NCBI RefSeq assembly: GCF_009914755.1
Contig: NC_060928.1
Length of the DNA stretch: 64,000 bases
Reading direction: 5' to 3' (one strand)
DNA from: the human T2T-CHM13v2.0 reference genome, Homo sapiens
Part shown: positions 30,192 through 62,880 of the stretch, one piece after another
Layout of the letters: every line of letters begins with the position of its first letter
Position numbering within the stretch: the first letter of the stretch is position 1
Program-made: the position numbers and the translations under genes
The notes under the pieces: generated by a model
Databases searched by the model: none
The model's input: only the letters and a program-made list of their open reading frames with translations
What the model was told of the DNA's origin: nothing

Positions 30192-30252
30192 TGTATTAGA
30201 CAGGTTCTCTTAGAGGGACAAAACTAATAGTATATATATATATAGTATATAG

Positions 30253-30288
<36 letters not shown>

Positions 30289-33870: not shown

Positions 33871-34406
33871 AGTCAACCCATGAAGCCACCTTGATCACTA
33901 AATATATCCCAATCACATTCTCTCTGAATAGTCTTCTTTAATTAAATTCTATGTTAAATTAATTCTACCATGTTAAAAGCAATTTAATCTGTCAGGCCTC
34001 TGAGGCCAAGCTAAGCCATATCCCCTGTGACCTGCATGTACACATCCAGATGGCTGGTTCCTGCCTTAACTGATGACATTCCACCACAGAAGAAGTGAAA
34101 ATGGCCTGTTCCTGCCTTAACTGATGACATTGTCTTCTGTTGTGAAATTCCTTCTCCTGGCTCATCCTGGCTCAAAAGCTCCTCTACTGAGCACCTTGTG
34201 ACCCCCACTCTGCCCACCAGAGAACACCCCACCTTTGACTGCAATTTTCCTTTACCTACCCAAATCCTATAAAATGGCCCCATCCCTATCTCCCTTCACT
34301 GACTCTCTTTTTGGACTCAGCCCACCTGCACCCAGGTGAAATAAACAGTTTTATTGCTCACACAAAGCCTGTTTGGTGGTCTCTTCACATGGACGCGCAT
34401 GAAATT

Positions 34407-34424
34407 TTGTGCCATGACTCGGAT
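34407..34424 (+). other. tRNA-His primer binding site (2 mismatches)
   Basis: TTGTGCCATGACTCGGAT versus canonical TGGTGCCGTGACTCGGAT, immediately after the 5' LTR. Confidence 0.85.
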
Positions 34425-35004
34425 CGGGGGACCTCCCTTGGGAGATCAATCCCCCATCCTCCTGCTCTTTGCTCCATGAGAAAGATCCACCTACGACCTC
34501 AGGTCCTCAGACGAACCAGCCCAAGAAACATCTCACCAATTTCAAATCCAGTAAGCGGCCTCTTCTTACTCTCTTCTCCAGCCTCTCTCACCGTCCCTCA
34601 ACCACTTTGTCCTTTTCACTCTTCAATCTCTCCCTTCTCTTAATTTCAATTCCTTTCATTTTCTGGTAGAGACAAAGGAGACACGTTTTATCCGTGGACC
34701 CAAAACTCCGGCGCCAGCCACAGACTAGGGAAGGCAGGCTTCCCTTGGTGTTTAATCATTGCAGGGATGCCTCTCTGAATATTCACCCAGGTTTCAGAGG
34801 TGTCAGAACATGCAGGGACGCCTGCCTTGGTCCTTCACCCTTAGCGGCAAGTCCCGCTTTTCTGGGGAAGGGGCAAGTACCCCAACCACTTCTCTCCATG
34901 TCTCTACTCCTTCTCCACCTTTCTGGGGGCAAGAAACCCCAACCCCTTCTCCTTCACCCTGAGCGGCAAGTCCCCCTTTTTTTAGGGGAGGGGGAAGTAC
35001 CCCA

Positions 35005-35175
35005 GCCTCGTATCTCTGTGCCCCAATCCCTTATTTCCACACCCCGACCTCTTATCTCTGTACCCAATCCATTATTTCCACACTCCAACCTCTTATATCT
35101 CTGTGCCCCATCCCTTATTTCTGCACCCTGACCTCTTATCTCTGTGCCCCAACCCCTTATTTCCATGACCCAACC
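35005..35175 (+). repeat. HERV-H leader tandem repeat (~35-bp CTTATCTCTGTGCCCC..CCCTTATTTCC units)
   Basis: About four imperfect units visible. Confidence 0.8.
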
Positions 35176-36137
35176 CCTTTCCCACTTTTCTGGAAGGTAA
35201 GAACCCCCGAACCCCTTCCCTCCATGTCTCTACTCTCTCTTTTCTCTAGGCTTGCTTCCTTCACTATGGACAACCTTCCACCCTCCATTCCTCCTTCTTC
35301 TCCCTTAGCCTGTGTCTTCAAAAACGTAAAACCTCTTCAACTCTCACCTGACCTAAAATCTAAGTGTCTTATTTTCTTCTGCAATGCTGCTTGACCCCAA
35401 TACAAACTCAACAGTAGTTCCAAGTAGCCGGAAAACGGCACTTTCAATTTTTCGATCCTACAAGATCTAAATAATTCTTGTCGTAAAATGGGCAAATAGT
35501 CTGAGGTGCCTGACGTCCAGGCATTCTTTCACACATCGGTCCCTCTCTAGTCTCTGTTCTCAATGCAACTCATCCCAAATCTTCCTTTTTTCCCTCCCAC
35601 CTGTCCCCTCAGTCCCAACCCCAAGCATCACTGAGTCTTTCTAATCTTCCTTTTCTACAGACCCATCTGACCTCTCCCCTCCTCCCCAGGCTGCTCCTCT
35701 CCAGGCCCAGCTAGGTCCCAATTCTTCCTCAGCCTCCGCTCCTCCACCCTATAATCCTTTTATCACCTCCTCTCCTCACACCTGGTCCAGCTTACAGTTT
35801 CGGCCCGTGACTAGCCCTCCCCCACCTGCCCAGCAATTTACTCTTAAGGTGGCTGGAGCTAAAGGCATAGTCAAGGTTAATGCTCCTTTTTCTTTATCCC
35901 AAATCAGATAGTGTTTAGGCTCTTTTTCATCAAATATAAAAATCCAGCCCAGTTCATGACTCCTTTGGCAACAACCCTGAGACACTTTACAGCCCTAGAC
36001 CCTAAAAGGTCAAAAGGCCGTCTTATTCTCAAAATACATTTTATTACCCAATCTGCTCTCGACATTAAATAAAACTCCAAAAATTAAATTCCGGCCCTCA
36101 AACCCCACAACAGGATTTAATTAACCTCGACTTCAAG

Positions 36138-36470
36138 GTGTACAATAATAGAAAAAACTTGCAATTCCTTGCCTCCACTGTGAGACAAACCCCAGCCACA
36201 TCTCCAGCACAAAAGAACTTCCAAACGCCTGAACCACAGTGGCCAGGTGTTCCTCCAGAACCGCCTCCCCCAGGAGCTTGCTACAAGTGCCAGAAATATG
36301 GCCACCAGGCCAAGGAATGCCTGCAGCCCAGGATTCCTCCTAAGCTGCGTCCCATCTGTGTGGGACCCCACTGGAAATCGGACTGTCCAACTCACCTGGC
36401 AGCCACTCCCAGAGCCCCTGGAACTCTGGCCCAAGGCTCTCTGACTCCTTCCCAGATCTTCTTGGCTTAG
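36138..36470 (+). pseudogene. HERV-H gag nucleocapsid remnant
   Basis: CX2CX4HX4C knuckle plus a degenerate second knuckle (CVGPHWKSDC). Confidence 0.85.
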
Positions 36471-36539
36471 TGGCTGAAGACTGACGCTGCCCGATCGCCT
36501 CGGAAGCCCCCTAGACCATCACGGACGCCGAGCTTTAGG

Positions 36540-38750
36540 TAACTCTCACAGTGGAAGGTAAGTCCGTCCCCTTCTTAATCAATACGGAGGCTACCCACTC
36601 CACGTTAACTTATATTCAAGGGCCTGTTTCCCTTGCCTCCATAACTGTTGAGGGTATTGACAGCCAGGCTTCTAAACCTCTTAAAACCCCCTAACTCTGG
36701 TGCCAACTTAGACAATACTCTTTTAAGCACTCCTTTTAGTTATCCCCACCTGCCCAGTTCCCTTAGTAGGCTGAGACACTTTAACTAAATTATCTGCTTC
36801 CCTGACTATTCCTGGATTACAGCTGCATCTCATTGCCACCCTTCTTCCCAATCCAAAGCTTCCTTTGCGTCCTCCTCTTGTATTCCCCCACCTTAACCCA
36901 CAAATATAAGATACCTCTACTCCTTCCTTGGCAACCGATCATGCACGCCTTACCATCTTATTAAAACCGAATCACCCTTACACCGCTCAATGCCAATATC
37001 CCATCCCACAGCATGCTTTGAAAGGATTAAAGCCTGCTATCACTCGCCTGCTACAGCATGGCCTTTTAAAGCCTATAAACTCTCCTTACAATTCCCCCAT
37101 TTCTCCTGTCCTAAAACCAGGCAAGCCTTACAAGTTAGTTCAGGATCTATGCCTATCAACCAAATTGTTTTGCCTATCCACCCCATGGTGCCAAACCCAT
37201 ATACTCTCCTATCCTCAATACCTCCCTCCACAATCCATTATTCTGTTCTGGATCTCAAACATGCTTTCTTTACTATTCCTTTGCACCCGTCATCCCAGCC
37301 TCTCTTCACTTTCACTTGGACTGACGCTGACACCCATCAGGCTCAGCAAATTACCTGGGCTGTACTGCCGCAAAGCTTCACAGACAGCCCCCATTACTTC
37401 AGTCAAGCCCAAATTTCTTCTTTATCTGTTACCTATCTCAGCAAAATTCTCACAAAAACACACGTGCGCTCGCTGCTGATCATGTCTGATTAATCTCCCA
37501 AACCTCAATCCCTTACAAAACAACTCCTTTCCTTCCTAGGCATGGTTAGTGCGGTCAGAATTCTTACACAAGAGCCAAGACGGCACCCTGTAGCCTTTCT
37601 GTCCAAACAACTTGACCTTACTGTTTTAGCCTAGCCATCATGTCTCCGTGCAGCGGCTGCTGCTGCCCTAATTGTTCTAGAGGCCCTCAAAATCACAAAC
37701 TATGCTCAACTTACTGTCTACATTTCTCATAACTTCCAAAATCTATTTTCTTCCTCATACCTGATGCATATACTTTCTGCGCCCTGGCTCCTTCAGCTGT
37801 ACTCACTCTTTGTTAAGTCCCACAATTACCATTGTTCCTGGCCCAGACTTCAATCTGGCCTCCCACATTATTCCTGATACCACACCTGACCCCCATGACT
37901 GTATCTCTCTGATCCACCTGACATTCACCCCATTTCCCCATATTTCCTTCTTTCCTGTTCCTCACCCTGATCACACTTGATTTATTGATGACGGTTCCAC
38001 CAGACCTAATCGCCACAACCAGCAAAGGCAGGCTATGCTATAGTACAAGCCACTAGCCCCACCTCTTAGAACCTCTCATTTTCTTTCTATCATGGAAATC
38101 TATCCTCAGGGAAATAACTTCTCAGTGTTCCATCTGCTATTCTACTACTCCTCAAGGATTATTCAGGCCCCCTCCCTTCCCTACACAGCAAGCTCAGGGA
38201 TTTGCCCCCACCCAGGACTGGCAAATTAGCTTTACTCAACATGCCCCGAGTCAGATGACTAAAATACCTCTTAGTCTAGGTAGACACTTTCCCTGGATAG
38301 GTACAGGCCTTTCCTACAGGGTCTGAGAAGGCCACCGCAGTCATTTCTTCCCTTCTTTCAGACACGAGTCCTCAGTTTAGCGTTCCCACCTCTATGCAGT
38401 CTGATAACAGACCAGCCTTTATTAGTCAAATCAGCCAAGCAGCTTTTCAGGCTGTTAGTATTCAGTGAATCCCTTAGGGTCTTCCGTCTTCAGGAAAAGT
38501 AGAACAGACTAAAGGTCTTTTAAAAACACACCTCACCAAGCTCAGCCACCAACTTAAAAAGGACTGGACAATACTTTTACCACTTTCCCTTCTCAGAAAT
38601 CAGACCTGTCCTCAGAATGCTACAGGGGACAGCCCATTTGAGCTCCCGTATAGATGCTCCTTTTTATTAGGTACCAGTCTCATTCCAGACACCAGACCAA
38701 CTTGGATTGGGCCCCAAAACACTTGTCATCCCTACTGTCTTCTGTCTAGT
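36540..38750 (+). pseudogene. HERV-H pro-pol remnant
   Basis: Frameshifted RT frames 36928-37493 with no YxDD motif. IN fragments further downstream. Confidence 0.85.
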
Positions 38751-39710
38751 CATACTCCTATTCACTGTTCTCAATTACTCATACATGCCCTGCTCTTGTT
38801 TACACTGCCAGTTTACACTGTTTCTCCAAGCCAGCACAGCTGATACCTCCTGGTGCTATCCCCAAACCACCACTCTTAACTCTTAAAGTAAATAAATAAT
38901 CTTTACTGGCAAGGCTATGATGAACCTCCTTAGGCACTCTCTAATTAGATGTCCTAGGTCCTCCCAAATCTTAGTCCTTTAATACCTGTTTTTCTCCTTC
39001 TCTTATTCCGTTTAGTTTTTCAATTCATACAAAACTGTATCCAGGCCATCACCAATAATTCTAAATGACAAATGTTTCTTCTAACAACCCCACAATATCA
39101 CCCCTTACCACAAAATCTTCCTTCAGCTTAATCTCTCCCACTCTAGGTTCCCACGCTGCCCCTAATCCCGCTCGAAGCAGCCCTGAGAAACATCACCCAT
39201 TATCTCTCCATACCACCCCCAAAAAATTTTCACCATCCCAACACTTTACCACTATTTTGTTTTATTTTTCTTATTAATATAAGAAGACAGGAATGTCAGG
39301 CCTCTGAGCCCAAGCTAAGCCATCATATCCCCTGTGACCTGCATGTACACATCCAGATGGCCGGTTCCTGACTTAACTGATGACATTCCACCACAAAAGA
39401 AGTGAAAATGGCCTGTTCCTGCCTTAACTGATGACATTGTCTTGTGAAATTCCTTCTCCTGGCTCATCCTGGCTCAAAAGCTCCCCCACTGAGTACCTTG
39501 TGACCCCCACTCTGCCCGCCAGAGAACAACCCCCCTTTGACTGTAATTTTCCTTTACCTACCCAAATCCTATAAAACGGCCCCACCCCTATCTCCCTTCG
39601 CTGACTCTCTTTTCGGACTCAGCCCACCTGCACCCAGGTGAAATAAACAGCTTTATTGCTCACCCAAAGCCTGTTTGGTGGTCTCTTCACAAGGACGCGC
39701 ATGAAAATGG

Positions 39711-40262
39711 TGAAACGAGAAGTCTTCCTCTGATGGAAGGTTTTTCTCGATCGAAGAGTTCGTGGTCTCACCGGCTTCAAGGAATGAAGTGTTACTGCTT
39801 GATTAGAGAAAGGTGCGGACCCAAAGAGTGTGGGGCGGCAAGATTTATTAAAGGGAAAGCGAAAGCGAAAGTAAAGCTTCGCCGATGAGGAAGGGGACCC
39901 GGAAGGGTTGCGTTTCTGGCTTGGATGTCTTATGCTTATATCCCCTCATGATTCCTCTCCTTTTCCTTTCTCTGTTCTATAGGACTAGCTTATTTTCTAT
40001 TCCCTTGTGGGTTGGTGGACCTAACTGGTTAAAAACATCAGGCTGCAGGTAGAGCTTAAACTCCCTATATGATTGGTTGAAGTTTCATTCCCTTAGTTTG
40101 CAGCTATAACTCATTTTGGCTTAGGGGAAAGTCCCTTTTGATTGGTTGAAGTTTCAATCCCTTAGCTTGCAGCTATGACTCATTTTGGCTTAGGGGAAAG
40201 TCCCCTTAGGGAAGTCCCTATTGGGCCTGGAAGTCCAGCCAACTTAGCCACTTAGTTCCTCA
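39711..40262 (-). mobile_element. Solo LTR of the HERV9/HERV-W/HERV30 group (LTR12/LTR30-related; exact family uncertain)
   Basis: TG...CA termini. TSD ATGG at 39707-39710 and 40263-40266. LTR12-like blocks CGGACCCAAAGAGTG, GCAAGATTTATT, GGAAGGGGACCC. Confidence 0.8.
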
Positions 40263-43200
40263 ATGGGAAGAATCAGATCTAAAGCTCTGCTCTCTTTCTG
40301 GGATTTCTTTGGTTTGGGGGAGTGCCAGGGATCACTTTGTACCATGAAAGCACATGACCTTTTAATGTGCAATGGCCAAAAACTCATTGGTGAGTGCTAA
40401 CTGAAGTTTTGGATGTGACTGACAGAGCTTATGAGGAATGGCTATTACTGCAGGGAGCCACTCATTTATTTGTGAGTATAGGTAAGAAAAGTGTGACTTG
40501 GAGCCCTGGAGGCTATGAAACACCACTGAGGGATAAGAATTCCAAGTGGGATGGACTGATCACAGAATGGGCTTATTGGTGTTGGGTTGCCCACCAGCCT
40601 TGGGGGGAATGTCCTTGCAATGAGCTGCACTGTGGCAGTGTTGCAGACTCATGATGTTTCCCTCTTTCTGGGATCAAAAAATTCAATGAAAAAGTGGGAT
40701 TCTCAATTGGGGTTGATCTAAGTGTTTTGTTTTTCACCTACGCCTACTTTTCACATATTTAAATATTAAGGCCTTAAAAACTGCATGCTTTCTTTGTCCT
40801 ATACATTAAGGGACTCCATCTGGAAGTCAGTAATAGAATCAAGAAAACAAGTTAAGTTGAAAAAACTGCCTACCTAACTAGATTGGTTTCCAAAATATGA
40901 CTTATTGGCATTAAGCTGGCTATTTTTAAATTGTTTGTAAAATAAATTTACATCTACAAAGGAAATCTCCATTTATAATGGCATCTTCCTCTCTGTATTT
41001 AAGCCACTAGAAATTTTTGAGATGAGGAAAACATTGGCTTAAAGTTTACATAACAAATCTTATCTTTGTTAAAGATACTTTTACTGGCAATGCTGTCTTT
41101 ACTAAGCCTTTATCTATTCTCTTCTTTGTTTAAGCAAATACGGTGTTTAAATGTAAGTTCTACGTCTTTGGGATGTAAATTTTTACTTAAGAGTCATGTC
41201 TTTGGAAGTACAAATTTAGAGTTGCCTAACCAGCTAACAATTATTTAGAGCAATGGAACAGATGAGGAAGAGATTGATAGAATAAAGTGGGCAAAGAAAC
41301 TGTTTGAAGAAGAATGTTACAACACTGTAGAATTTGCTTCTGTCTATATGTTTATATACATGATATTTTACTACCTATATGTATTAAATAAATTCGATCA
41401 GTAGACAGGCTTTTTATGAAGTTTGTTTTTTCTTCTTTCCATATTACAATTTCTAGATGCAAAAACTAAATCTTGCTACTCTTCTGCCCCTTCTTCTTAG
41501 ATGAAAAGCCACACAATTTCCTAATCTTAACCAACCAGCTACTTTCTCCTACAATGGTCCTGCAAAAAAACTCTCCTTACTAATGCTAATGTTGTTTTGT
41601 GTACAGATAAATCATACTTGATGATTCTGGAATTTATCATGCAGGTTATGTTATAGGATCTTTAACTGAGAATACAGAAAGTGCTTATCTTCCAGAAGCA
41701 AACTTGGCTCAACAAGCTGAGTTAATAGCATTAATTAGAGCTTGTCAATTGGCAAAAGGAACAACTGCTAATATTTATAGAAATAGCACATATGCTTTCA
41801 GAGTAGCTGATGACTTTGGAATGTTATGGAAAAAAAGAGAATTTTGAACATTTCCTATCAGTCTAAAGAATGGACACTTTGTTTCAGAATTTCTGGAAGC
41901 CATATTATTGCCAAAAGCATTAGCTACTATCAAGATTCCAGACCACTGAAAGTCAGACGCTACAGATAGCAAAGGACAGCAATTATCAAATAATATAGCA
42001 AAAAGGGCTCCCTTAATGTATCTGAGCAAGAAAGTCAACCCATTTTTGTTTTCAAGGAAGTACTTGATTTTGATATACAATTACTTCAATCCAAAGTCCT
42101 AAAAATAGAACAAGAAAATTGGTAAATAGAAGGGTAAATAACTCCTCTATGACTGGACTGTGGTATGCACCAAATGGTCTACTCATACTTCCAACAAAAT
42201 TACAGTTATCTTTCCTAGCTTATGTACCTGGTTTAATTCAATGGAGCCCTGGTGAAGTGATTACTTGGAGAAAACAATATTATTGGAAATTTCTGCAATT
42301 ATTGCTCATAATGTATGCAATCACCGTCACTTCTGCCAAAACTATAATCTGGGGAAATATTTACATAGTACTCAAAGTCATTTTTCTTTACCTGAAGGCC
42401 CCTTCAAAGCGTGACAATTATATTTTATCCAACTATTTATGTTACAAGGGTACGAGTACATTCTAGTGATGATTTATATGTTTTCTCATTGGGTAAAAGC
42501 ATTTCTATGCAGAAGAGCAACAGACTTAGGAGTAAATAAAATTATCTTTGGGAAAAATATTCTGATATGTGGAGTTCCTCTAGACATTCACAGTGACTCA
42601 TTTCACTGGACAAATAATCTAGTCGATATATAAAATCTGGCTCACTCTCCAACATTTCTATTGTGCATATTACTGCCAGTCACCTGGGTTAGTGGAACAC
42701 ACAAGCAAAATAATCAAAATTCATTTGGCAAAAATAACTGAGGCTTTTAAAATCCCTTGGCCAAAAGCTCTTTCACTGGTTGCTTGTTCTTATCCTAAGA
42801 TCCACCTCTTTCCCTATTCATAAACACTGGCTCTCTCTATTTGAAATTATCACAGGCAGACCTATGAAATTATTTTCAGGTAATTGTAAATCTATGATAT
42901 CAAAGGGGGATATGTTGTATTATTGCAGCAGCCTCATAAGGCAACTAATTAAAAATTGTAATTTATTAATAGTAAAACACTCTTTCCACAGTGAGCTCCA
43001 AGGAGACAAGGAACACAAGGACCATGGACATCAACCAGGAGATTTGTCTGTTGAAAATGGCATTCTTTTAAAGGACTTCATTTAACCAAAATGGAAGGGA
43101 CCTTATCAAGTGCTCCTAACTAACCTGTGTGCTGCTAAGTTAAAAGTAATAGATTTTTAGATACATGTCACTCATTTAAAGAAAGTCACTTTACTAATTT

Positions 43201-44961
43201 CTACCTTATCTTAAACCAGTGATTTAAAAATTGAAACTATCTAGAACCAACAAAGATGAGAAAAATATATCAGATGCAGTTAGCTTTCTCAAAACACCAA
43301 ACCAGACCTGTGTCTAAACTAATGCTTAATATTAACAATCATTAATAGATTAATGATTAATAGATTAATCATTAAAAGTCTTCCTTTGCAAGTTCCCACT
43401 AAATATCTTTCTTTTCAACCCTAGATATTATGCTTTATTGCTACTACCAAAGCTATTGCCTATGAATCTAATCTCTTGCAATGGAGTCAAAACTATGCTG
43501 ATAGATTACAAAAAAACACTTGTTGGATATGTGACCTCATACCTTTTTCTGGTGGTTCTTACCTATCACGGTGGGTATCTCCTTTCTAAGGAAAATATTG
43601 GATAGAATATCAGAAATATATCTGTATTTCTCAAGAAAAATCATTGGTGCTTACATTAGTATGACTAAGGATGACATATGTAACTGGTCTATTAATTATA
43701 CTTTACAAAGCAAAGGGCATGGGAAGAGCTTTTTGGTAGATGAAATCTTTTTTTGCTTTTAATACTACCGTTGCCTCAACTGAGAAATAAGACAACTTAA
43801 TTCTAGGATGGTACAACACAAATTTGAGACATCTCTGTATAGCTTACCCCTTCTTTTGGTCAACTTAGTCAGCTTTATGTTGAGAAAAAAGAAAAGAATC
43901 ACACCAAAGACACATAGTTCAGTAACACTGAAGATATGGGATGGATACCCAAGAAATGATGTGTCCACACCCTTATCTTACAAAGTACTGATTGGCATGT
44001 CACTGAATGAACACAGTGGCCAGTATTTATTGGCTAGCTCCAAATGGAATAACTTGACAATGAGGCACCAATTAATGGCTACAGTTAACCCAAGGATGTT
44101 TAGGACAGTGTTCTTTGGGTTACAGCTGGGCACAAGGTTAAATAGTTCATACGCTTTCACAGCCTGAAAATTTTTCTTATTTATAGTCTTATTTGGCTCA
44201 TTCCCTATTTCATTGGTATAATCATTTAGCTTCCATCTTTCTGCCACAACTGGGTACTGAGGTTGTCATTTGGCATGTAGAGACTTTAACCAATTACACG
44301 ATAAAAGGTGGTAAATGGTAGTCACCTGGATCTTATTATTAAACAGTGAAGTTGCTCTTATGAGAATTGCTGTATTGCAGAACCATATAGCTTTAGATAT
44401 ACTCACTGTATTGAAAGGGGGAACTTGCACTATCGTAAAAACTGAGTGTTGTGTCTATATCCCAGATGAACTAGATAACATATTTACATTAATGGCTGAT
44501 ATGGAAAACCAAATAACTAACCTTTCAGATTTAATATCCTCTCTGGATTATTGGATAAGAAGCTGATTTGGATCTTGGGAAACCTGATGGAAAAAACTAG
44601 GAATAATAATCATTTGTAGCATTTTGTCTTGTTTTTGTCTTTACTCCTGGTGCGGCATTTGTTGGCAATGGAGTCAACACACAACTGACAAAACTAAAGT
44701 TTGTTCAAAAAATTGCATTAATTGAAGATGCAACTGTGAAGCCTGACTCAAGTCACAATGTCACCTTCTTCACCTTGCTCTAAATTTGGGCTATACCCCA
44801 TCAGCTTTATAACTTGGTAAATTGCTCATCAATGAAGCATGACTTCCTAGGAGTGAGCTTTTCTAGCAACACTGGACTAAGTTCCTGAACTTATAGGGAA
44901 CCAAACTGTTTGAGGTTATCTACCATGCTTTCTTTGGAACATCTTGATGGAAAAAAAGAAA
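40263..44961 (+). mobile_element. ERV1 (MER4 group) internal region, 3' half: non-coding segment, RNase H, integrase, env
   Basis: RNase H AQQAELIALIRA (about 41708), IN (YILVMIYMFSHWVKAF, LFEIITGRPM, KWKGPYQVLL), env TM. PPT before 44962. Confidence 0.88.
43420..44760 (+). pseudogene. Gamma-type env remnant
   Basis: ORF 44315-44566 has the ISD-like LQNHIALDILT and CX6CC (CTIVKTECC). The upstream SU region is broken by stops and frameshifts. Confidence 0.85.
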
Positions 44962-47531: not shown

Positions 47532-47607
47532 TTTCATGCGCGTCCTTGTGAAGAGACCACCAAACAGGCTTTGTGTGAGCAATAAAGCTGTTTATTTCAC
47601 CTGGGTG
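47532..47607 (-). mobile_element. LTR7 3'-terminal stub (76 bp)
   Basis: Reverse complement CACCCAGGTGAAATAAACAGC...GGACGCGCATGAAA, one mismatch to the end of the 39294-39706 LTR. Confidence 0.95.
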
Positions 47608-49016: not shown

Positions 49017-50705
<1,689 letters not shown>

Positions 50706-51904: not shown

Positions 51905-53395
51905 AACAGTAATAGAAAAAGCAATCCTAAGCAAAAAGAACAAAGCTGGGGCATCACATTACTCGACTTCAAATTGTACTGTAAGACTATATTCATCAAA
52001 ACATCATGGTACTGATACCAACAAAAATAGACACAATGACCAAAGGAACCAAATAGAAAACCTCAAAATAAAACTACACATCTATAGCCATCTGATCTTT
52101 GACAAAGTTAACAAAAATAAGCAATAGGGAAGGGAATCACTACTCAATAAATGATGCTGAGATCCTGGCTAGCCATATGCAGAAGAATAAACCTGTACTC
52201 TTCCCTTTCATCATGTACAAAAATTATCTCAAGTTGGATGTGGATTAAATATTTAAGAGCTCAAACTGTAAGAATTCTAGAAGAAAACCTAGGAAGCACT
52301 ATTCTGGACATCAGTCTTGTGAAATGATTTATGGTTAAGTCCTCAAATGCAATTGCCACAAAAACAAAAATTGACAAGTGGGACCAAATTAAGCTAAATA
52401 ACTTCCCCACAGCAAAAGAAAGTATCATCAGAGTGAACAGAAAAACCACAAGATGGGAGAAAATATTCACAAACTCTGCATCAAACAAAGATCCAATATC
52501 CAGAATCTATAAAGAACTTACACAATTCAACAAGCAAAAAATACATAATCATATTAAAAAGTGGGCCAAAAAAATATGAACAGACACTTCTCAAAAGAAC
52601 ACATACAAGCAGCCAATGAACATATAAAAAAAATGCACATCACTAATCATCAGAGAAATGCAAATCAAAACCACAATGAGATATCATCTCATACCAGTCA
52701 GAATGGCTATTTTAAAAAGTACAAAACAACAAATGCTGAGGAGGCTGCTAAGAAAAGGGAATGCTTAAATGCTGTTGGTGGAAATGTAAGTTAGTTCAGC
52801 CACTGGAAAACAGTGCGAATATTTCTCAAAGAACTTAGAACTACCATTTGGCCCAGAAATCTCATTAAGGGACATATATTCAAAAGAATATCAATTGTTC
52901 TACTAAAAAGACATATGCATGCATATGCTCATTGTAGCACTATTTACAATAGCAAAGACATGGAATCAACCTGGTTGCCCATCAATAGTGGGTTAGAAAA
53001 ATAATATGGCACATATACACCATGGAATATTACACAGCCATAAAAAAGGAACAAAAACATGTACTTTGAAGAAACATGGATGTGGCTAGATGCCATTATC
53101 CTGACAATTTAGAAACAGAAAACCAAATACCACACGTTCTTGCTAATAGGTGGGAGCTAAACATTGGGTACTCATGGACATAAAGATGGCAACAATAGAC
53201 ACTGGGGATTGCTAAAGGGGGAAGGGAGAGTAATAGTTGACTAACTATTGGGTACTATGCTTGCTACCTGGGTAACAGGATCATTTGTACTTCAATCCAC
53301 AACATCATGCAATGTATCTATGTAACAAACCTGCACATGTACCACCTGAATCTAAAATAGTACTTGAAATTATTTTGAAAATTAAAAAAATAGTA
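51905..53395 (+). mobile_element. 5'-truncated L1PA16/17-like LINE-1
   Basis: ORF2 C-terminal remnants and 3' UTR GACATAAAGATGGCAACAATAGACACTGGGG. Confidence 0.9.
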
Positions 53396-53449
53396 AAAAA
53401 TAGAATTGAGTATTTTAAACTAATGTAATTGAAATTTAAAATTCTAAAG

Positions 53450-53760
53450 TGTCAGAACAAACAATATAGCAAGCCTGATATTGCTATTTTTAGAAAGATA
53501 TGCATATAAAGTTAATTTGGTACTTGAGAACTTGGATTTGGATTTGGGGGTCTTTACATTGTTACCTAATAAAAATGGCTTATTTTGACCAAACTGTTTG
53601 TAGAAACAATGTGGTTTATGCCTAACACTTGCCTTCTTTCTGGGAGTCTAGAAATTTGATATAAGCTAGCAGAAGGTACCTACATGACCAGCCCTAACAG
53701 AAACACGCTGGGCAGTGAATCTCTTATGAATTTCCTTGGTAGACAATAATTCACGTTTAC
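53450..53760 (+). mobile_element. MER34/MER39-like LTR fragment
   Basis: CTTTCTGGGAGTCTAGAAATTTG...CCTACATGACCAGCCC recalled as a MER4-group LTR segment. Confidence 0.5.
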
Positions 53761-53764
53761 TAAA

Positions 53765-56200
<2,436 letters not shown>

Positions 56201-56205
56201 GCATC

Positions 56206-56584
56206 TGATATGCTCTGGCTGTGCCCCCACCCAAATCTCATCTTAAATTGTAGTTTCTGTAATCCCCATGTGTTGGGGGTGGGAGGCACCTGATGGGAAA
56301 TAATTTAATCATGGGGGCAGTTACCCTCATGCTGTTCTTGTGATAGTGAGTGAGTCCTCACAAGATCTGATAGTTTTATAAGGGGCTTTTCCCCTTTTGC
56401 TCATCACTTCTCCTTCCTGCCACCATGTGAAGAATAACGTGTTTGTTTTCCCTTCTGCCATGATTGTAAGTTTTCTGTGGCCTCCCCCGCACTGCGCAAG
56501 TGTGAGCCAATTAAACCTCTTTTCTTTACAAATTACCCCGTCTTGGGTATGTCTTTATTAGCAGAGTGAGAACAGACTAATACA
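56206..56584 (+). mobile_element. THE1D-like solo LTR
   Basis: TGATATG...CTAATACA termini, collinear with the other THE1D LTRs in the window. Confidence 0.92.
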
Positions 56585-56869
56585 TCATTATAATTAAATG
56601 CATAATACTGAAAACCTTACGAAAACAGAAACAGGAAAGGGATTAGCATTATTAACTTGTAAACATTGTAGTATAGATTGTTGTAAGAAAAAAAGTAAAA
56701 GCAATAAGGATGGGTAAGAAAAAAATAAATTTGTCATTTCTTAGAGATGATATATATGTGTGTAGACAAAATCCAAAAAAAAAGGAAATCTATATAATGT
56801 TATCAGTAAGTAAATTTTTCATGATTACAGGATACAAGAATAAAATTATTATCAGATTTTGCCTTGAAA

Positions 56870-57304
56870 GGGTATTTTTCTTCACAGTATGATTCTGACT
56901 AGGCCCAATGACTACATTTGTCCAATTAAGTGACATTATTCAAGTTCAGAGTGTAAATATCAAGAGTTTTTCAAGGCTTTACAGACTCATTTGGGTCTTT
57001 GTCCACCTTTACCATATGAAAAGGTCTATACTAGCCTCCTAATGATTATAAACCACATGTAGCTAGAAGAGTCATCTTACCCAAGTGTCTTAGAGAAGTC
57101 AGTTCCAAGCTTTCCCAGCTGCTTATCACAAACCCAGAGGGAATCCAACCAGAATGAGCTAAGCAAGACCCACACCAGTAGAACCACCCCAATGAGATTC
57201 AGCCCATTTGTCAATGCATATAATTATGGCCTAAAAAATTGTATGCTTTTTTATTTTGATAAATTTTGGGATGTTTTACTTAAACCAAAGCTAACTGATA
57301 TAAA
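56870..57304 (+). mobile_element. Old MLT1-type LTR fragment
   Basis: Ends TAAATTTTGGGATGTTTTACTTAAACCAAAGCTAACTGATATA, an MLT1-like terminus. Confidence 0.55.
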
Positions 57305-58424
57305 ACCCAACCAAATATGTGCAAGACCTATACCAAGAAAATGATAAAGCATTAGGAGACCTTCAAGAAGATTTAAATAAATTGAGGTGTATACTAACAT
57401 CATGGATAGAGAGAGGTAAAGATGTGAATGCTCTCCAAATTGATCTAAAAATTCAATGTATTCCCAAATACAACATTACCAGAATTCTGAATTGGAAATA
57501 AAAACTGATCATATAATATTTATGGTAACAAAATAAATGACTAAGAATCACTGGGACATTCTTGAACACAGACAAAATATTGGTAAACATAATTAACAGA
57601 TCAGTTATCAACATTGATTGTAATTAGGACAAACACAGAAAATAGGACAATATAATACTGGCATGAAGAAAGACAAATGGAGCAGTATAACAGAATAAAT
57701 AGACCAAAAATACACCTACGTAATAAATATGATCTTGATTTACAGCAAGGTTTACATTACAAAAGGATTATCTTTAAATAAATGAAGGTGTGAAGTGTAT
57801 ACTGAAATAGAAGAAAATTGTCTGTGACCCCCTTCCAAACACTATACACAGAAAAGTAGTATAAAACCTAACTGTTAAAAGTTAATTAATAAAAATTATG
57901 GATATAAATATGGAATTAATTACTATAACATTATTTTACATGAAAATTAAGAACTTTGTTCATAAAGAATACCAATACAAATGTAAATTCAAAGAACAGA
58001 TGAATTATTTGCAATAAATACAACTCATTAAGGTCTTGCAAATATTCTCCCAGAATATATAAATCTATAAGACACTAATTAATAAGAAAGAGAGATAATA
58101 CAAATGAAAAATGAAGAATTAAACTTGAGGATAACTTCATAAAATATATTCAGATACTCAATAAAAACACACATAAGTACAATACCCTATTATTAATCAA
58201 GAAAAGTACTAAGTAATATAGGCATTATACACTCATCAGAATGGCTAACATAAGAAACATTATAGTAACGTGAGTTGACAAAGTTCTGTAGCAATTGGAA
58301 CTCTCATGCATTGCTTGTACAAATGTGGGTAAATTGGTACCACTTAGAAAAACTGGGAAGATCTACTAAAATAGAATAAAACAATTTCTGATGACAAAAC
58401 AATTCCACTATCTTTACATAGCCT
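57305..58424 (+). mobile_element. L1ME-type ORF2 3' region (host of the ERV1 insertion)
   Basis: Degenerate ORF2 (MQDLYQEND..EDLNK..SWI) running to GGAACTCTCATGCATTGC...AATTCCACT. Confidence 0.7.
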
Positions 58425-58898
58425 TGTGAAATTAAATAATTCAAACTTAATGTTATTGGAACTTTGAATTATTTGAGCCCTGAGAGGAATGTGATTTCTT
58501 GGTCTAAGTCACATAGGATGCATCTGTAACTTCTGTTTCTCCAATTGCAGATGAAACCTCTATCTCATTTTTGTTCTGTAAATTATTAGGGAAGACTAAA
58601 GGCTACCAGAGAAAAGACCCCTAAAAGCTATTACCCCTCCTCACAAATATTAAAGCAATCTTTCTTGGAATGTAGCAAGCTATAACCAATCAAATTGCCT
58701 TAACATATTCACTCACTTTATTGCAACCCTATTAGACATTTCTGTTTCTGCCTGTGTGCGTGAAACCTTAGCTTTACCATTTTGGGATGCTGACCACATT
58801 TACTTGAAGCTGGTGTTTCCTGGGTGACTATCTTAAAGCTTTGCATTGAGATAAACTCTAAACTTAATCACATTTTCTTAATCTAATTTAAGGTGACA
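58425..58898 (+). mobile_element. 5' LTR of the ERV1 provirus (LTR23/MER84-like)
   Basis: TGTGAAATTAAATAATTC...TTTAAGGTGACA followed by PBS-like TTTTGGTGAGCAAGAAGG. Confidence 0.88.
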
Positions 58899-61800
58899 TT
58901 TTGGTGAGCAAGAAGGAACCCAAAATGGACCTCCAGTGATACTCAAATCTTGGCCAATAACCAGAGCTCTGATACCAGCAAAATGACTTTCACTCACCCA
59001 ACCTCACTGGAATCCATGGGCAATATCTGGTAAGGCCCTTTTTGAGGGCTGAACCTCCCAGCTTGGTTGAGGTTCAGACTTTATTCAAGATATAGACTTC
59101 CTAACTCAACAAAGTTGGAATTGAAGCTCTACTGCTAGGTAGAAGCTTCATTTGTTATTTTCTAGAGATTTTGCTGACCAAAAACTTGTGACTTTCACTT
59201 TTCTCTGAGGTAAAAGTTTTGTTTTTAATTATTCATTAGGGTTTCTATAGCCTTTTCTCTCATTCAAAATTTTGGTCAGGAAGAAAATAGCTTTTCTTTG
59301 AAAGTAAAAAGTGAATCTTTGTAGTTTAAGCAAAATTTGTAATCTTTAAAACTGGCCAGATTCTGAAGCTTTGTTTGGTTGTCAAATCTAAACTTCCCTC
59401 TTGAGTGACCAAAATTATAAAAGGCTTCCTATGGGGATAAAATAAGAACCAAAGTTTTTTTATACTTTTTATTATTATTCTGACCAGAAGGCACCATAGG
59501 TAACTAGGGTCTTTCAGGTATGTCAGAGTGTATTTCTCATGATGTTAAATGGTCTCATAGGGAATCCCTTGAGAAGAACATACAAGGACTCTTGCTTAAT
59601 CCAGTGTGTACACATTAAAAAATGGCCACCTAGTGCCTTAAGCACCCAAGTCTCTTGGGATCACTGAGACACAAGAAAGGGAACAATTGACTCCAGAGTG
59701 ACACCTCAAGGTAATGTTCCCACAGGTAGTACACTTGACTCAAAATACTTTCCATTAAGTTTTTTTAGAGAAAAATCTAAATTAGGGGCAGTCCTGTATC
59801 TAAAACCAAGTGTTCATTTTTAAGGAGCAATCCACCACTAGAAACACCAGTTTCATTCATTGTTTAATACTTATGGTGCCTCTTCATGAAAATATTTAGA
59901 AAATATGTCACACATATGATGACACCAAATTACAATGACCAAAATAGGGCACATTTGAAACACCTAAACGAATTTACCTGCATGCTTAATTAGACAAAGC
60001 TAGCTCTAAAATAAAACAAAATAACTAGAAAAATGAATGTGATTGGTACTTAGAAGTCTCTAAAAAGAGGTTCTAATAAACTTATCTGTAGGAGTAAAAC
60101 AAAAAAAGTCTAAGATAATTTCTGAATTGGAAAAAGATTCTGAAATTTCTCCTCCTGCTTCAGCCCTTCCTTTTCATTAGCACACATCATCAGAACTTTC
60201 TAGCCTAGATTTACATCCTCCTCCTTTTCCTTAACCTTTTTCTGCTGTTCTGATTCCATTTTGGGAACACTCTGTATCTGTATCCAGTAGAGAAGAATCT
60301 GTCTCAGTTTGTCAACCACAGTCAGAGGTCAAGATTAAAACTATAATTAAAGAATTCCTTGACTGAACTTCTTAAGAGCCCTATTGGATTTAACAGAATA
60401 CTCAAATTAAACATCTGAGCTTATAATTTCAGGTTATCTGATTTATAACAACTGGTCTACAGGGTTGTTTTAGAAAGTAAAGCCAAATATTGGATAGCAA
60501 AGGAAAACTGGAGCAATTTTTAGAAGACTTTCATACATTTCTGAAGCTGATTATGAATAAAATACTACTGCTAAAGCTTTACGAAACAATATTACCTTAG
60601 TTTTCCGAAAGGTGTTTGATAAGAACAAAATACAACAGTGCCAACAAAAACACTAATGAGCTCCTAATGTTATACCATGAAAGATTTGGAAAAAAAAAAG
60701 TAACAATATTCAGGCCTGTTAGGAGAAAGATATGTTAATCACCAAAATAATACACTCCCTAACTCAAGCATTATAAATGGATTCAATGACAAATTGGCAA
60801 GTATAATAAAGAGACAATCCCCCAGTTGGGCTACCTCTTAATCTCATGATCTAGTTAATTTTGCATGACCAAATTCATGCATTCTAACCAAGGAAGAAAA
60901 GAAAAGGAAAAAAAAGAGAAGAAAAGCAAGTAAGTCTTGAGTTTACAACTAAAACAATTGTTCAGCCAATTTATAACCCCTAAATGACTTCTTAAACTCA
61001 AAAACTAACCCAATTCTCTGCTTCTCAGTGAATGTAAAAAACTGTGGACAAGAATTTGACCAAAAGGCATAAGGCAGAGTGAGAAACTAAGACAAGTTTT
61101 AGAACAGGAGTGTAAGTTTAACAAAAAGCTTTAGAGCGAGAACAAAAGGAAGTAAACTTGGAAGAGGACAAAGCTGGCGACTTGAAAGATAAGTGCATAG
61201 TTTGACCTTTGACTTACACTTTTATACGTTGCTATACTTCTGGGGTCTTGCATCCCTTCTTCCCTGATTCTTCCTTTGGAGTGGGCTGTCCACATGTGCA
61301 GTGCCCTGCCAGCACTTGAGAGGCGCCGCATGCACAGTTTGTTTACTGGTGGTGTACACACTCTCACTTGAGGTGTTCTTCTCTTAACACTCTAATATTT
61401 CTAGAATGCCATTTACTGGTTAAACTTCACTATTTTGCCTCTTAGTGTGCATGCTTGAGCCCACTTACCCAACTCTTAAGATCTTATTGGGAAGCTGCTG
61501 ATCACTAACTACTTTCAGGTTTTTTTCTATCTATTGGGAGGCGGCCTTTTTCTGGCACCAGCTGTGACAAATTATCATTTTAGAGCGATGTATAACAACT
61601 GCCTGACCACCACCTGATAGTTGCCTGACATTTCTACTGTGGGTGGGGATTTGGGGGTTCTGTCCTGCCCTGCTCATGTCTGACTAGCTATCTACTTCAG
61701 CAACACTAATACTTTAGGATAAATTCAAATTATTTTAAATTGAGAACAAACAAGCTCTTACTGACACTGAGCTACATTATTAGCAATGAATCCCACATTA

Positions 61801-62711
61801 TTACAAGGACCATTCCTTGAATTGAAAAAACGATACAGATGGTAGGTGAAACACATACTTTTATATCAGCAAATAAGTCTTAATTTATAGTTTCCAATTA
61901 GGTTTTATACAAGGAACACATGTTTTTCTCTTGATTCCCTCAGCCCCCATCCATTTGATAGGGAGAGACTTTCAGAATTACATAATGCCCATATCTTATT
62001 TTCTAAGAAGGGGGGGATGTATTTAGCATTAGAAGATAAAATTGAATTATTAGATATAATTTTTGTTCAAACTCTGCTTCTTTTAATTCATATATTGCAA
62101 TTCTTATCGCCATGGAAATACTGAATTGTTAAATAATGAAGAATTACAAACCTGTCAAAAGTGGTTTCTGATCAATTGTGGTCAAAATCATCCACCAATA
62201 TTGGAAAACTTATCTCAGCTGTCTCAATCAAAATTGAAGTAGGTCCATCGAAATGTCTTTCAAACTTTAAGCAATATCTTCCAGTATCAAGGACCTTGGA
62301 GGGAATAAGAACTATAGTTTTGGAATACATAAAAGATTACTTACTTCTTGTACAAGAGCATGTAACACTTTACTCCTTCTTGTAAGAAAACCAAGTTGTG
62401 TAGGAATGGTGGAGATTTGTACAGAATCTACGTGCAATTAATAACAGTCATTCTTTGACATCCTGGAGTATCAAAAAAAATTTTGTCTTGTGGAGACCTT
62501 AAAATCTCCCCAGTTTGGCTCCTCTGTGACTTATTCTTCCATTTCCTGCCACTCTTCTCCTCCTTCTTTTTGTCGTCTTTGATACAACATGAAGAACATT
62601 TACAGAAGACTTCTCACAGCCCTGTTATACCTTCAAGAACACATAAAAAGGAACCACACATTCTACTTTTAGAATTTTCTGCTCCCTTTGTAGTGTTCCA
62701 AGAGTCATGGT
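58899..62711 (+). mobile_element. ERV1 (MER4 group) internal region, 5' half: leader, gag, protease, RT start
   Basis: Protease-site remnant CTTACTGACACTG (about 61757), HLIGRDF-like segment (about 61952), RT start WRFVQNLRAIN (about 62409). Confidence 0.82.
61050..61705 (-). mobile_element. MER50-like LTR inserted at the gag/pro boundary, 3' end truncated
   Basis: Minus strand begins TGTTGCTGAAGTAGATAGCTAGTCAGACATGAGCAGGGCAGG. Confidence 0.75.
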
Positions 62712-62780
62712 TGTCAGGCCTCTGAGCCCAAGCTAAGCCATCATATCCCCTGTGACCTGCACGTACACATCCAGATGGCC
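62712..62780 (+). mobile_element. LTR7 5'-terminal stub (69 bp)
   Basis: TGTCAGGCCTCTGAGCCCAAGCTAAGCCATCATATCCCC...CAGATGGCC, one mismatch to the start of the 39294 LTR. Confidence 0.95.
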
Positions 62781-62802
62781 AGTGTACATCCAGATGGCCA
62801 GA

Positions 62803-62880
62803 CATATACATATATATACATATATATGTATATGTCATATACATATATATACATATATATGTATATGTCATATACATATA
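62803..62880. repeat. Two exact 33-bp quasi-palindromic TA-rich units plus a partial third
   Basis: CATATACATATATATACATATATATGTATATGT at 62803 and 62836. Confidence 0.9.

What the first reader, a model, noticed from the sequence alone, without database searches (positions are those of the whole stretch)
33985..62880. Swapped target-site duplications reveal two LTR7 integrations and a double inversion spanning ~23 kb
Seen: the HERV-H provirus has non-matching 5-bp flanks, TAATC (33985-33989) and ATGGT (39707-39711). The orphan LTR7 3' stub at 47532-47607 (minus) is followed on its own strand by TAATC (GATTA at 47527-47531). The orphan LTR7 5' stub at 62712 is preceded by ATGGT (62707-62711). 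Established: retroviral integration leaves identical flanking repeats. Inference: element A (TSD TAATC, plus) and element B (TSD ATGGT, minus) originally faced each other 7.8 kb apart. Recombination between the inverted LTRs flipped 39707-47531. A second, non-homologous event broke the reciprocal LTR, lost its middle (about 270 bp if solo) and flipped 47608-62780. The apparently normal provirus is therefore a recombinant marking an inversion breakpoint.
Basis: partly seen in the sequence, partly recalled or inferred. Interest (0 to 1): 0.9.

Follow-up and report, generated by a model that had tools for sequence, protein, structure and literature searches.

The report
Retroviral repeats behind a human-specific inversion
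A 29-kb stretch of human chromosome 4 that is already listed as flipped relative to other primates carries pieces of two HERV-H retroviral insertions whose 5-base flanking duplications are swapped, which likely means the flip arose by recombination between the two insertions together with a second, adjacent flip.

Summary
The HERV-H provirus (33990-39706) has flanks TAATC and ATGGT. The reciprocal flanks sit beside two LTR7 stubs, at 47532-47607 (minus) and 62712-62782 (plus).

New support:
- An ancient repeat ending at 62710 continues at 40272 in 9 of 11 paralogous copies. So 62710 and 39711 were once contiguous.
- Eight of 8 control HERV-H proviruses have matching 5-bp flanks. This one matches at 0 of 5.
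- Its two LTRs differ at linked sub-lineage markers that agree in 8 of 8 controls. They carry 12 versus 2 private substitutions.

The region is the published inversion chr4_inv19 (hg38 chr4:132118123-132147236). It is assigned there to the human lineage and listed without segmental duplications at its breakpoints. I found no text linking it to HERV-H.

The published breakpoints span 26-29 kb. A rare variant is shared by the 3' LTR and the 3' stub. Both suggest the provirus body was flipped too. That would make TAATC the site of a solo LTR and ATGGT the site of the provirus.

Unresolved: the block order in outgroups, whether there was one step or two, and where the crossover lies.

The parts
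33985..33989 (+). TAATC: 5' copy of the target-site duplication of element A
33990..34404 (+). 5' LTR of the provirus (415 bp, annotated LTR7d2). It carries 12 private substitutions, a 3-bp deletion and a 5-bp insertion, and has sub-lineage markers T-C. Assigned to element A.
34405..39293 (+). HERV-H internal region (primer-binding-site region directly after the LTR). Its parent element, A or B, is not resolved.
39294..39706 (+). 3' LTR (413 bp). It has 2 private substitutions and markers C-T, and carries the rare CACAAGGACG variant. Assigned to element B.
39707..39711 (+). ATGGT: 3' copy of the target-site duplication of element B. ATGG is also the 5' duplication of the older LTR, and T is that LTR's first base.
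39711..40262 (+). Older solo ERV LTR (TGAAACGAG...CCTCA) with 4-bp duplications ATGG at 39707-39710 and 40263-40266
40272..41389 (+). 3' part of an ancient repeat whose 5' part lies at 62476-62710
   Evidence: collinear in 9 of 11 paralog loci
39712..47526 (.). Block a (7.8 kb), inferred to be inverted relative to the ancestral order
   Evidence: Flanks. Orientation in gibbon.
47527..47531 (-). GATTA, which reads TAATC on the minus strand: 3' copy of the duplication of element A
47532..47607 (-). LTR7 3' stub (LTR positions 338-413). It is 98.7% identical to the 3' LTR and shares the rare A variant with it.
47608..62706 (.). Block b (15.1 kb), inferred to be inverted. Its first 500 bases are single-copy.
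62476..62710 (+). 5' part of the ancient repeat that continues at 40272
62707..62711 (+). ATGGT: 5' copy of the duplication of element B
62712..62782 (+). LTR7 5' stub (LTR positions 1-71), 97.1% identical to the 3' LTR and 92.6% to the 5' LTR
62783..62801 (+). 19-bp filler at the junction. It contains an exact 16-base copy of the end of the stub (ACATCCAGATGGCCAG).
   Evidence: D3
62801..62886 (.). AT-rich palindromic repeat (34-nt arms, 94% complementary, 1 nt apart) abutting the right breakpoint

Best explanation
The window holds a chimeric HERV-H provirus and two LTR7 stubs with swapped 5-bp flanks, and this likely records an exchange between two oppositely oriented LTR7d2 insertions plus a second, non-homologous flip that together would have produced the published human-lineage inversion chr4_inv19.

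Inferred ancestral order: left flank, TAATC, element A (plus strand), TAATC, block a reversed, ACCAT, element B (minus strand), ACCAT, block b reversed, right flank.

Step 1 (inferred): homologous exchange between A and an LTR of B, in register. It flips everything between them and swaps one flank of each element.

Step 2 (inferred): breaks inside the reciprocal LTR and at an AT-rich palindrome flip block b. About 266 bases of LTR are lost (positions 72-337) and a 19-base copied filler is left behind.

Most likely sub-version (about 0.5): A was a solo LTR and B the provirus. The exchange fell in the last ~14 bases of the LTR, so 34.4-47.5 kb flipped first.

Whether the two steps were separate events or one complex repair event is open.
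For: Shown directly:
- The four junctions and swapped flanks. There are only four LTR7 pieces in the window and no stray internal sequence.
- Control of 8 proviruses: 5-bp flanks match 5/5 or 4/5 in all 8, against 0/5 here.
- B site. 39711-40262 is an older solo LTR with a 4-bp duplication ATGG. An ancient repeat covering 62476-62710 continues at 40272-41389 in 9 of 11 paralog loci. In 5 of these (L022, L026, L027, L028, L032) the two parts lie 10-16 bases apart in the paralog. So 62710 and 39711 were contiguous and on the same strand.
- Chimerism of the provirus. Linked markers at alignment columns 199/206 agree between the two LTRs in 8 of 8 control proviruses and disagree here. LTR5 has 12 private substitutions and 2 indels against 2 substitutions in LTR3 (p=0.013). 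None of the 8 control pairs gives p below 0.1. None of the 39 other-locus hits listed for LTR3 is LTR5.
- Literature. Mercuri 2022 supplementary tables S2/S5/S7 list chr4_inv19 at hg38 chr4:132118123-132147236. It is homozygous in gibbon, has no segmental duplications at either breakpoint, and is assigned to lineage HSA. Sections 7 and 12 were read. Carter 2022 supplements place the provirus and both stubs in hg38, giving an offset of 3,323,811. The breakpoints therefore map to window 33934-36331 and 62549-63047.

For the sub-version:
- The breakpoint span of 26.2-29.1 kb fits 34.4-62.8 kb.
- The variant CACAAGGACG is shared by LTR3 and the 3' stub. It has 5 exact genome matches including these two, against 254 for the C form. 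The other three carriers are unrelated LTRs.
- Both stubs are closer to LTR3 than to LTR5.
Against: - No outgroup sequence was available. Strand-seq gives orientation, not block order, so two adjacent flips are inferred only from the flanks and the split repeat.
- The A-site contiguity (33989 next to reversed 47526) rests on the 5-base match alone. No paralogous repeat spans it.
- The junction of reversed 47608 with 62783 is assumed. 47608-48107 is single-copy.
- Two independent inversions sharing a breakpoint within the human lineage is a priori unlikely.

Against the sub-version:
- Private-change density is 2.45% up to about 38.8 kb and 0.86% after it (permutation p=0.037). This would fit a crossover near the 3' end instead, although one of six control proviruses shows equal heterogeneity (p=0.030).
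- Internal lineage markers split 3 to 3.
- The shared rare variant could come from gene conversion between the inverted LTRs.
- The gibbon breakpoint inside a repetitive provirus could rest on a mis-mapped read.
Confidence: 0.7

Rival explanations
1. Element A (TAATC) was the provirus and element B (ATGGT) a solo LTR. The crossover lay in the 3' LTR, so the provirus body never moved and only 39707-62782 (23 kb) is inverted relative to outgroups.
For: - It has the same flank logic.
- The private-change density is high from the 5' LTR through to about 38.8 kb and low after it. This fits a provirus that is mostly one old element with a younger 3' end.
- It needs only a ~266-base loss in the second event.
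Against: - The published gibbon breakpoint 1 maps to 33934-36331, and the inner span of the inversion is 26.2 kb, larger than 23 kb.
- The 3' stub would then come from A, yet it shares the rare A variant with the B-derived 3' LTR. It also lacks the 5' LTR's private changes.
- The crossover would have to lie before alignment column 199 of the LTR.
Confidence: 0.2
2. Both elements were full proviruses. The crossover lay inside the internal region, and the second event removed about 5.3 kb of the reciprocal provirus, leaving only its two LTR ends.
For: - The first three lineage markers (to 34727) side with the 5' LTR type and the next two (35563, 35737) with the 3' LTR type.
- Private density is 3.2% in the first ~1.4 kb against 1.9% afterwards.
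- A crossover before 36.3 kb fits the published breakpoint 1.
Against: - The internal markers alternate afterwards, 3 to 3 overall, so they are unreliable.
- The model needs a much larger deletion.
- The 3' stub would be A-derived. That again leaves the rare variant shared with the 3' LTR to chance (about 1%) or gene conversion.
Confidence: 0.2
3. One complex repair event rather than two successive inversions. There would be three simultaneous breaks: at the LTR homology, inside the far LTR, and at the AT-rich palindrome. A broken LTR end would invade the other LTR, and the remaining ends would be joined without homology.
For: - The published assignment places the whole 29 kb in the human lineage. 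About 6 inversions arise per million years genome-wide, so two independent hits sharing one breakpoint are unlikely.
- The exchange appears to sit at the very edge of the 76 bases of LTR that survive next to the break.
- The right junction has a copied 19-base filler next to a palindrome, as seen in error-prone end joining (recalled knowledge).
Against: - No intermediate can be excluded. The shared-inversion analysis in that paper scored calls as shared at 50% overlap of the maximum length, so if the HSA assignment rests on a similar comparison, an ape carrying only the first flip could have been scored as the same inversion.
- There are no duplications of the kind that replication-based mechanisms usually leave, apart from the 19 bases.
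Confidence: 0.4
4. A single simple 29-kb inversion, as published, with the swapped flanks and split repeat due to chance or to older events shared by all primates.
For: The published tables list it as a simple, non-nested inversion.
Against: - Reversing 33990-62782 as one block does not rejoin the ancient repeat.
- It also places TAATC against the broken end of a stub instead of an LTR terminus.
- The extra events would have to follow LTR7d2 insertion yet be shared with macaque, where only 5 of 550 7d elements are found.
- The joint chance of the flank matches is about 1e-6.
Confidence: 0.03
5. Assembly artefact in the window.
For: None found.
Against: GRCh38 carries the same three LTR7d2 pieces with the same strands and spacing to within 2-3 bases: 13,540 and 28,719 in hg38 against 13,542 and 28,722 here.
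Confidence: 0.01

Closest known systems
Inversion chr4_inv19 (hg38 chr4:132118123-132147236) in Mercuri et al. 2022, Genome Res (PMC9712629). Its table cites Maggiolini et al. 2020 and Porubsky et al. 2020.
   Same: It is the same locus. With the offset, its breakpoint intervals contain the 5' LTR and the 5' stub. It is inverted in gibbon relative to GRCh38 and assigned to the human lineage.
   Different: It is listed as a simple inversion with 'no' segmental duplications at both breakpoints and no mechanism. Strand-seq cannot see block order. The retroviral pieces, swapped flanks, split repeat and two-block structure are not in the rows or sections I read. The supplements of Maggiolini 2020 could not be read and Porubsky 2020 is not held.
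Rearrangements detected from proviruses with mismatched target-site duplications and discordant LTRs (Hughes and Coffin 2001, Nat Genet, HERV-K). Recalled; not seen here.
   Same: The logic is the same. A provirus whose two flanks do not match and whose LTRs are not each other's partners marks recombination between two elements.
   Different: Here the family is HERV-H (LTR7d2). Both reciprocal flanks are still present nearby, and the reciprocal product was broken by a second event.
LTR-LTR recombination of HERV-H within one provirus, forming solo LTRs (Thomas, Perron and Feschotte 2018, PMC6298018; passages seen)
   Same: Homologous recombination between LTR7 copies changes genome structure long after insertion.
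   Different: That process acts between direct repeats of one element, deletes the body and keeps the flanks matched. Here the repeats are inverted, belong to two elements, and the result is an inversion with swapped flanks.
Serial or nested inversions with breakpoint reuse in primates (Maggiolini 2020 title and abstract; Hops et al. 2024, PMC11393467; ape genomes paper, passages)
   Same: Two flips share one breakpoint and give an order that a single inversion cannot explain.
   Different: Those cases are driven by large segmental duplications. Here the homology is a ~413-base LTR. The locus is absent from the three readable supplements of Hops et al. (three of four; one was unreadable).

Membership tests
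HERV-H provirus (LTR7 group) | Two LTR7 LTRs with termini TGTCAGG... and ...CATGAAA flanking an internal region that starts with the primer-binding-site region | tested here: met
   Annotated as a full-length LTR7d2 HERVH in Carter 2022 supplements.
HERV-H provirus (LTR7 group) | Matching 5-bp target-site duplication on both sides | tested here: not met
   TAATC against ATGGT, 0/5. Eight of 8 control proviruses match 4/5 or 5/5. This failure is the signature of a recombinant, not evidence against HERV-H identity.
HERV-H provirus (LTR7 group) | 5' and 3' LTR descend from one integration (same sub-lineage, similar load of private changes) | tested here: not met
   The markers at columns 199/206 are discordant here and concordant in 8 of 8 controls. 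Private substitutions are 12 against 2, p=0.013.
Inversion by homologous recombination between inverted repeats | Homologous repeats in opposite orientation at the two exchange points, joined in register | tested here: met
   The provirus LTRs and the minus-strand stub are intact to the last base at their termini. The orientation is opposite.
Inversion by homologous recombination between inverted repeats | Reciprocal swap of unique flanks between the two repeats | tested here: met
   TAATC and ATGGT are each split between the provirus and a stub. The ATGGT site is confirmed by the split ancient repeat.
Inversion by homologous recombination between inverted repeats | Opposite orientation of the intervening DNA in outgroups | tested here: inconclusive
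   The published Strand-seq call shows inverted orientation in gibbon over window ~36.3-62.5 kb, and the source assigns it to the human lineage. No outgroup sequence was examined here and block order is unknown.
Non-homologous (end-joining type) inversion, for the second flip | No shared homology at the two breakpoints, with loss or filler at the junctions | tested here: met
   47607/47608 joins LTR position 338 to single-copy DNA. 62782/62783 joins LTR position 71 to a 19-base filler and an AT-rich palindrome. LTR positions 72-337 are absent from the window.
Published inversion chr4_inv19 | Same genomic interval | tested here: met
   The offset of 3,323,811 comes from three annotated LTR7d2 pieces and from a printed alignment row that shows this LTR's private G and its 3-base deletion. 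Breakpoints then map to 33934-36331 and 62549-63047.

The most novel reading that the evidence does not exclude
One of the dozen or so inversions assigned to the human lineage is not a simple flip. It is a two-block rearrangement seeded by recombination between two HERV-H LTR7d2 insertions only ~413 bases long. It left a chimeric provirus and a shattered reciprocal LTR beside an AT-rich palindrome. The published description ('simple inversion, no duplications at the breakpoints') therefore misses both the mechanism and the true ancestral order.
Probability: 0.6. Interest if true: 0.65.

Novelty: new member of a known kind. Interest (0 to 1): 0.55.

Why it matters
Few inversions are assigned to the human lineage: 12-14 in the study read here. 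Most lack a base-level mechanism.

This locus would show three things:
- A pair of ~413-base retroviral LTRs, far below the size of segmental duplications, can seed such an event.
- Strand-seq calls of 'simple' inversions can hide serial or complex rearrangements.
- A seemingly ordinary full-length HERV-H in catalogues is a chimera of two insertions. That affects LTR-divergence dating and orthology-based ageing of this element.

The rearranged block carries RefSeq-annotated enhancers (40004-41517) and a silencer (37439-37614) in a gene-poor region. Any functional effect is untested.

Tried and rejected
- Paralog test of the A site. The left flank's repeat ends at ~33880 and the right flank matches only a microsatellite. 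None of the 23 paralog loci examined spans the junction.
- Paralog test of the third junction. 47608-48107 is single-copy. 62877-63260 is a common repeat (it looks like an L1 3' end, by recall) that starts sharply in this copy. No test was possible.
- Locating the crossover inside the provirus:
  - Private-change profile and change-point give p=0.037, but a control provirus gives p=0.030.
  - Lineage markers from 3 versus 5 reference proviruses split 3 to 3 in the internal region. Inconclusive.
  - A first pass against 5 unrelated proviruses was confounded by subfamily differences.
- Whether the rare A variant marks a lineage: its three other carriers are unrelated LTRs, 85.5-95.5% identical to LTR3, so it is a recurrent mutation.
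- Nearest-neighbour test of the LTRs. All copies form a star, so rank alone is uninformative.
- One search used LTR ends mis-set by 2 and 8 bases. This was corrected.
- Literature on outgroup structure. The ape-genome supplements were too large to read. The macaque paper's supplement was unreadable and its main text is silent on the locus. Porubsky 2020 is not held. Mao 2023 has no supplements. Hops 2024 has no entry. The Cell 2022 human inversion paper is not held, so polymorphism in humans was not checked.
- Searches for the coordinates (0 papers) and for 'human-specific inversion' with HERVH/LTR7 terms (none of the 15 listed papers of 119 holds that phrase) found no text linking this inversion to HERV-H. 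Searches likewise found none.
Full report
**1. The observation**

- The provirus begins with TGTCAGG at 33990 after TAATC, and ends with CATGAAA at 39706 before ATGGT.
- A 76-base piece equal to the last 76 bases of the LTR lies on the minus strand at 47532-47607. On its own strand it is followed by TAATC.
- A 71-base piece equal to the first 71 bases of the LTR lies on the plus strand at 62712-62782, preceded by ATGGT.

BLAST finds no other LTR7 piece in the window and no HERV-H internal sequence outside the provirus. The corrected LTR coordinates are 33990-34404 and 39294-39706.

The two 5-mers each occur at about 0.001 per position per strand in the window. Two matches at fixed positions are therefore not chance.

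As a control I took eight other HERV-H proviruses from the same genome. In all eight, the five bases before the 5' LTR and after the 3' LTR agree: 5/5 in five of them and 4/5 in three. I read this by eye, because the script's automatic flag recognised only one of the eight: in four pairs it mislocated a mutated LTR terminus, and the three 4/5 pairs are not exact matches. The window's provirus agrees at 0 of 5.

**2. Independent evidence that 62710 and 39711 were once joined**

The DNA right after the provirus (39711-40262) is an older solo LTR of another family, TGAAACGAG...CCTCA.
- It has hundreds of copies in the genome at about 80% identity.
- That family makes 4-bp duplications. Here they are ATGG at 39707-39710 and 40263-40266.

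The DNA left of the 5' stub (62476-62710) belongs to a much older, low-copy repeat. I compared the eleven paralogous copies fetched for that repeat with the whole window.
- Nine of them continue collinearly, on the same strand, from the match to 62476-62710 into a match to 40272-41389.
- In five of these (L022, L026, L027, L028, L032) the two matches lie only 10-16 bases apart in the paralog.
- The other two loci (L023, L025) match only the left part.

The ancestral sequence therefore ran from ...62710, through the older LTR, to 40267... . The LTR7-bearing element with the ATGGT duplication was inserted exactly at that point. This does not depend on reading the 5-base duplication.

The same test could not be made for the other two junctions.
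- At the TAATC site, the flanks there are single-copy or simple sequence.
- At the junction of 47608 with 62783, one side is single-copy and the other is a simple repeat followed by a common repeat.

**3. The provirus is a chimera**

I aligned the two LTRs with twenty closely related LTRs, eight of them being LTR pairs of single proviruses.
- Alignment columns 199 and 206 are tightly linked in this panel (T-C in 7 LTRs, C-T in 12, C-A in one). [quoted passage not shown]
- In the window the 5' LTR is T-C and the 3' LTR is C-T.
- The 5' LTR has 12 private substitutions, a 3-base deletion and a 5-base insertion. The 3' LTR has 2 private substitutions (binomial p=0.013). None of the eight control pairs gives p below 0.1; the most skewed is 6 to 1, p=0.125.
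- The 5' LTR keeps 2 CpGs and the 3' LTR keeps 7.
- The 39 other-locus hits listed for the 3' LTR are 96-98% identical to it, and the 5' LTR is not among them. The 5' LTR's own best hits are 94% or lower.

One caveat applies. The panel was chosen as the best matches to the 3' LTR. This inflates that LTR's similarity to the panel, but it does not create the 5' LTR's private changes.

**4. The locus is a published inversion**

Supplementary tables of Mercuri et al. 2022 (PMC9712629; rows seen, sections 7 and 12 read) list chr4_inv19.
- Interval: hg38 chr4:132118123-132147236.
- Breakpoint 1: 132118123-132120520. Breakpoint 2: 132146738-132147236.
- No segmental duplication at either breakpoint.
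- Homozygous in the gibbon, supported by a discordant BAC-end pair.
- Previously reported by Maggiolini 2020 and Porubsky 2020, and assigned to the HSA lineage.

Supplements of Carter et al. 2022 (PMC8912925) annotate three pieces in hg38:
- a full-length LTR7d2 HERVH at chr4:132118178-132123891 (+);
- a 73-base LTR7d2 at 132131718-132131790 (complement);
- a 71-base LTR7d2 at 132146897-132146967 (+).

The spacing and strands match the window. A printed alignment row shows this LTR's private G and its 3-base deletion. The resulting offset of 3,323,811 places breakpoint 1 at window 33934-36331 and breakpoint 2 at 62549-63047. These intervals contain the 5' LTR and the 5' stub.

The same data show that GRCh38 has the same arrangement, which excludes an assembly artefact.

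Searches for the coordinates and for human-specific inversions together with HERVH or LTR7 found no text that links this inversion to the retroviral elements. Carter et al. list the stubs as two separate 'solo' LTRs.

**5. What happened (inference)**

The flanks and the split repeat fix two ancestral adjacencies:
- 33989 next to reversed 47526;
- 62710 next to 39711.

The simplest ancestral order is: left flank, element A (plus), block a reversed, element B (minus), block b reversed, right flank. The present order differs by reversal of two adjacent blocks that share a breakpoint.

- The first junction is in register inside LTR homology. This points to homologous exchange between the inverted LTRs.
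- The other two junctions are non-homologous. LTR position 338 is joined to single-copy DNA. LTR position 71 is joined to a 19-base filler that holds an exact 16-base copy of the stub's end, followed by an AT-rich palindrome with 34-base arms. LTR positions 72-337 are gone.

A single reversal of the whole block does not rejoin the ancient repeat, and it puts TAATC against a broken stub end. I therefore reject the simple-inversion reading. Strand-seq cannot tell the two apart, because it reports orientation only.

**6. Which element was the provirus**

Three lines favour B instead, with A a solo LTR and the exchange in the last ~14 bases of the LTR.
Breakpoint 1 ends at 36.3 kb, inside the provirus.
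- The 3' LTR and the 3' stub share CACAAGGACG. Seven of seven sampled LTR7 copies have C at that position. Genome-wide there are 254 exact matches with C against 5 with A, two of the five being these pieces. The other three carriers are unrelated LTRs, so the change recurs at about 1%. Sharing it is what the two LTRs of one provirus would do.
- Both stubs lack all the private changes of the 5' LTR and are closer to the 3' LTR: 97.1% and 98.7% against 92.6% and 97.1%.

Against this:
- The density of private changes stays high (2.45%) from the 5' LTR to about 38.8 kb and drops to 0.86% after it (p=0.037). One of six control proviruses is equally uneven, at p=0.030.
- Lineage markers in the internal region split 3 to 3.
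- Gene conversion between the inverted LTRs could explain the shared variant.

My estimates are:
- about 0.5 for A solo and B provirus;
- 0.2 for two proviruses with an internal crossover;

**7. One event or two**

The source assigns the whole interval to the human lineage and estimates about six inversions per million years genome-wide. Two independent hits sharing a breakpoint would therefore be surprising. A single complex repair event is a serious alternative (about 0.4). In that event, a break in the far LTR would leave an end that invades the other LTR.

The 50% overlap rule used in the same paper's shared-inversion analysis means an ape with only one of the two flips might have been scored as the same inversion, if the HSA assignment rests on a similar comparison. 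The intermediate therefore cannot be excluded from what I could read.

**8. Age**

Carter et al. report that only 5 of 550 LTR7d1/d2 elements are found in macaque, about 30% in gibbon and about 75% in orangutan (passage). The two insertions are therefore old relative to the inversion. The unequal private loads suggest A is the older of the two. I did not date them further.

**9. Verdict**

The inversion itself is already known. What appears to be new:
- its base-level anatomy;
- the retroviral mechanism;
- the two-block structure;
- the chimeric nature of a catalogued provirus.

The decisive test, alignment to outgroup assemblies, could not be run with the tools at hand.

Noticed in passing
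window 39711-40262: Older solo ERV LTR (TG...CA, 4-bp duplication ATGG). It contains a ~69-base unit repeated around 40070-40207; one paralog (L018) carries four copies of the unit. Its 3' end and the adjoining ancient repeat coincide with the RefSeq enhancers at 40004-41517. The family could not be named, as no repeat library was at hand.
   Followed up: partly
window 62801-62886: Near-perfect AT-rich palindromes (arms of 34, 29 and 20 nt) directly at the right breakpoint. This kind of sequence can form cruciforms and break (recalled knowledge).
   Followed up: partly
window 47440-47500: A (TG)n/(TA)n-type microsatellite lies about 30 bases from the TAATC duplication next to the 3' stub. The 2-3 base differences in spacing between hg38 and this assembly may come from such repeats.
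   Followed up: no
window 62877-63260: A common repeat with thousands of candidate copies at 72-80% identity starts sharply at 62877. By recall it looks like an old L1 3' end.
   Followed up: no
LTR alignment columns 199 and 206 (window 34185/34192 and 39487/39494): Two linked sites split the LTR7d2-like LTRs sampled into T-C (7 of 20) and C-T (12 of 20) types. They agree between the two LTRs of each of 8 proviruses, which makes them a handy marker for spotting chimeric proviruses.
   Followed up: partly
window about 36.8 kb, if the recalled hg19-to-hg38 shift of about -921 kb is right: A childhood blood-pressure GWAS (PMC9973622, table passage) lists rs188276693 at chr4:133,042,109 (build not stated in the passage), with nearest gene LOC105377428 and p=1.1e-7. 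It may fall inside the provirus. The coordinate conversion is unverified.
   Followed up: no
window 37439-37614 and Carter 2022 supplement row for chr4:132118178-132123891: The provirus is scored RNA=0 in embryonic stem cells with a ZNF534 peak, and RefSeq marks a silencer inside it. So this copy appears transcriptionally silent in that cell type.
   Followed up: no
window 245-536, 8772-10126, 29390-30769: Three stretches match the same repeat (probably L1) that flanks one of the older-LTR paralogs, L010. This is ordinary interspersed repeat content upstream of the finding.
   Followed up: no
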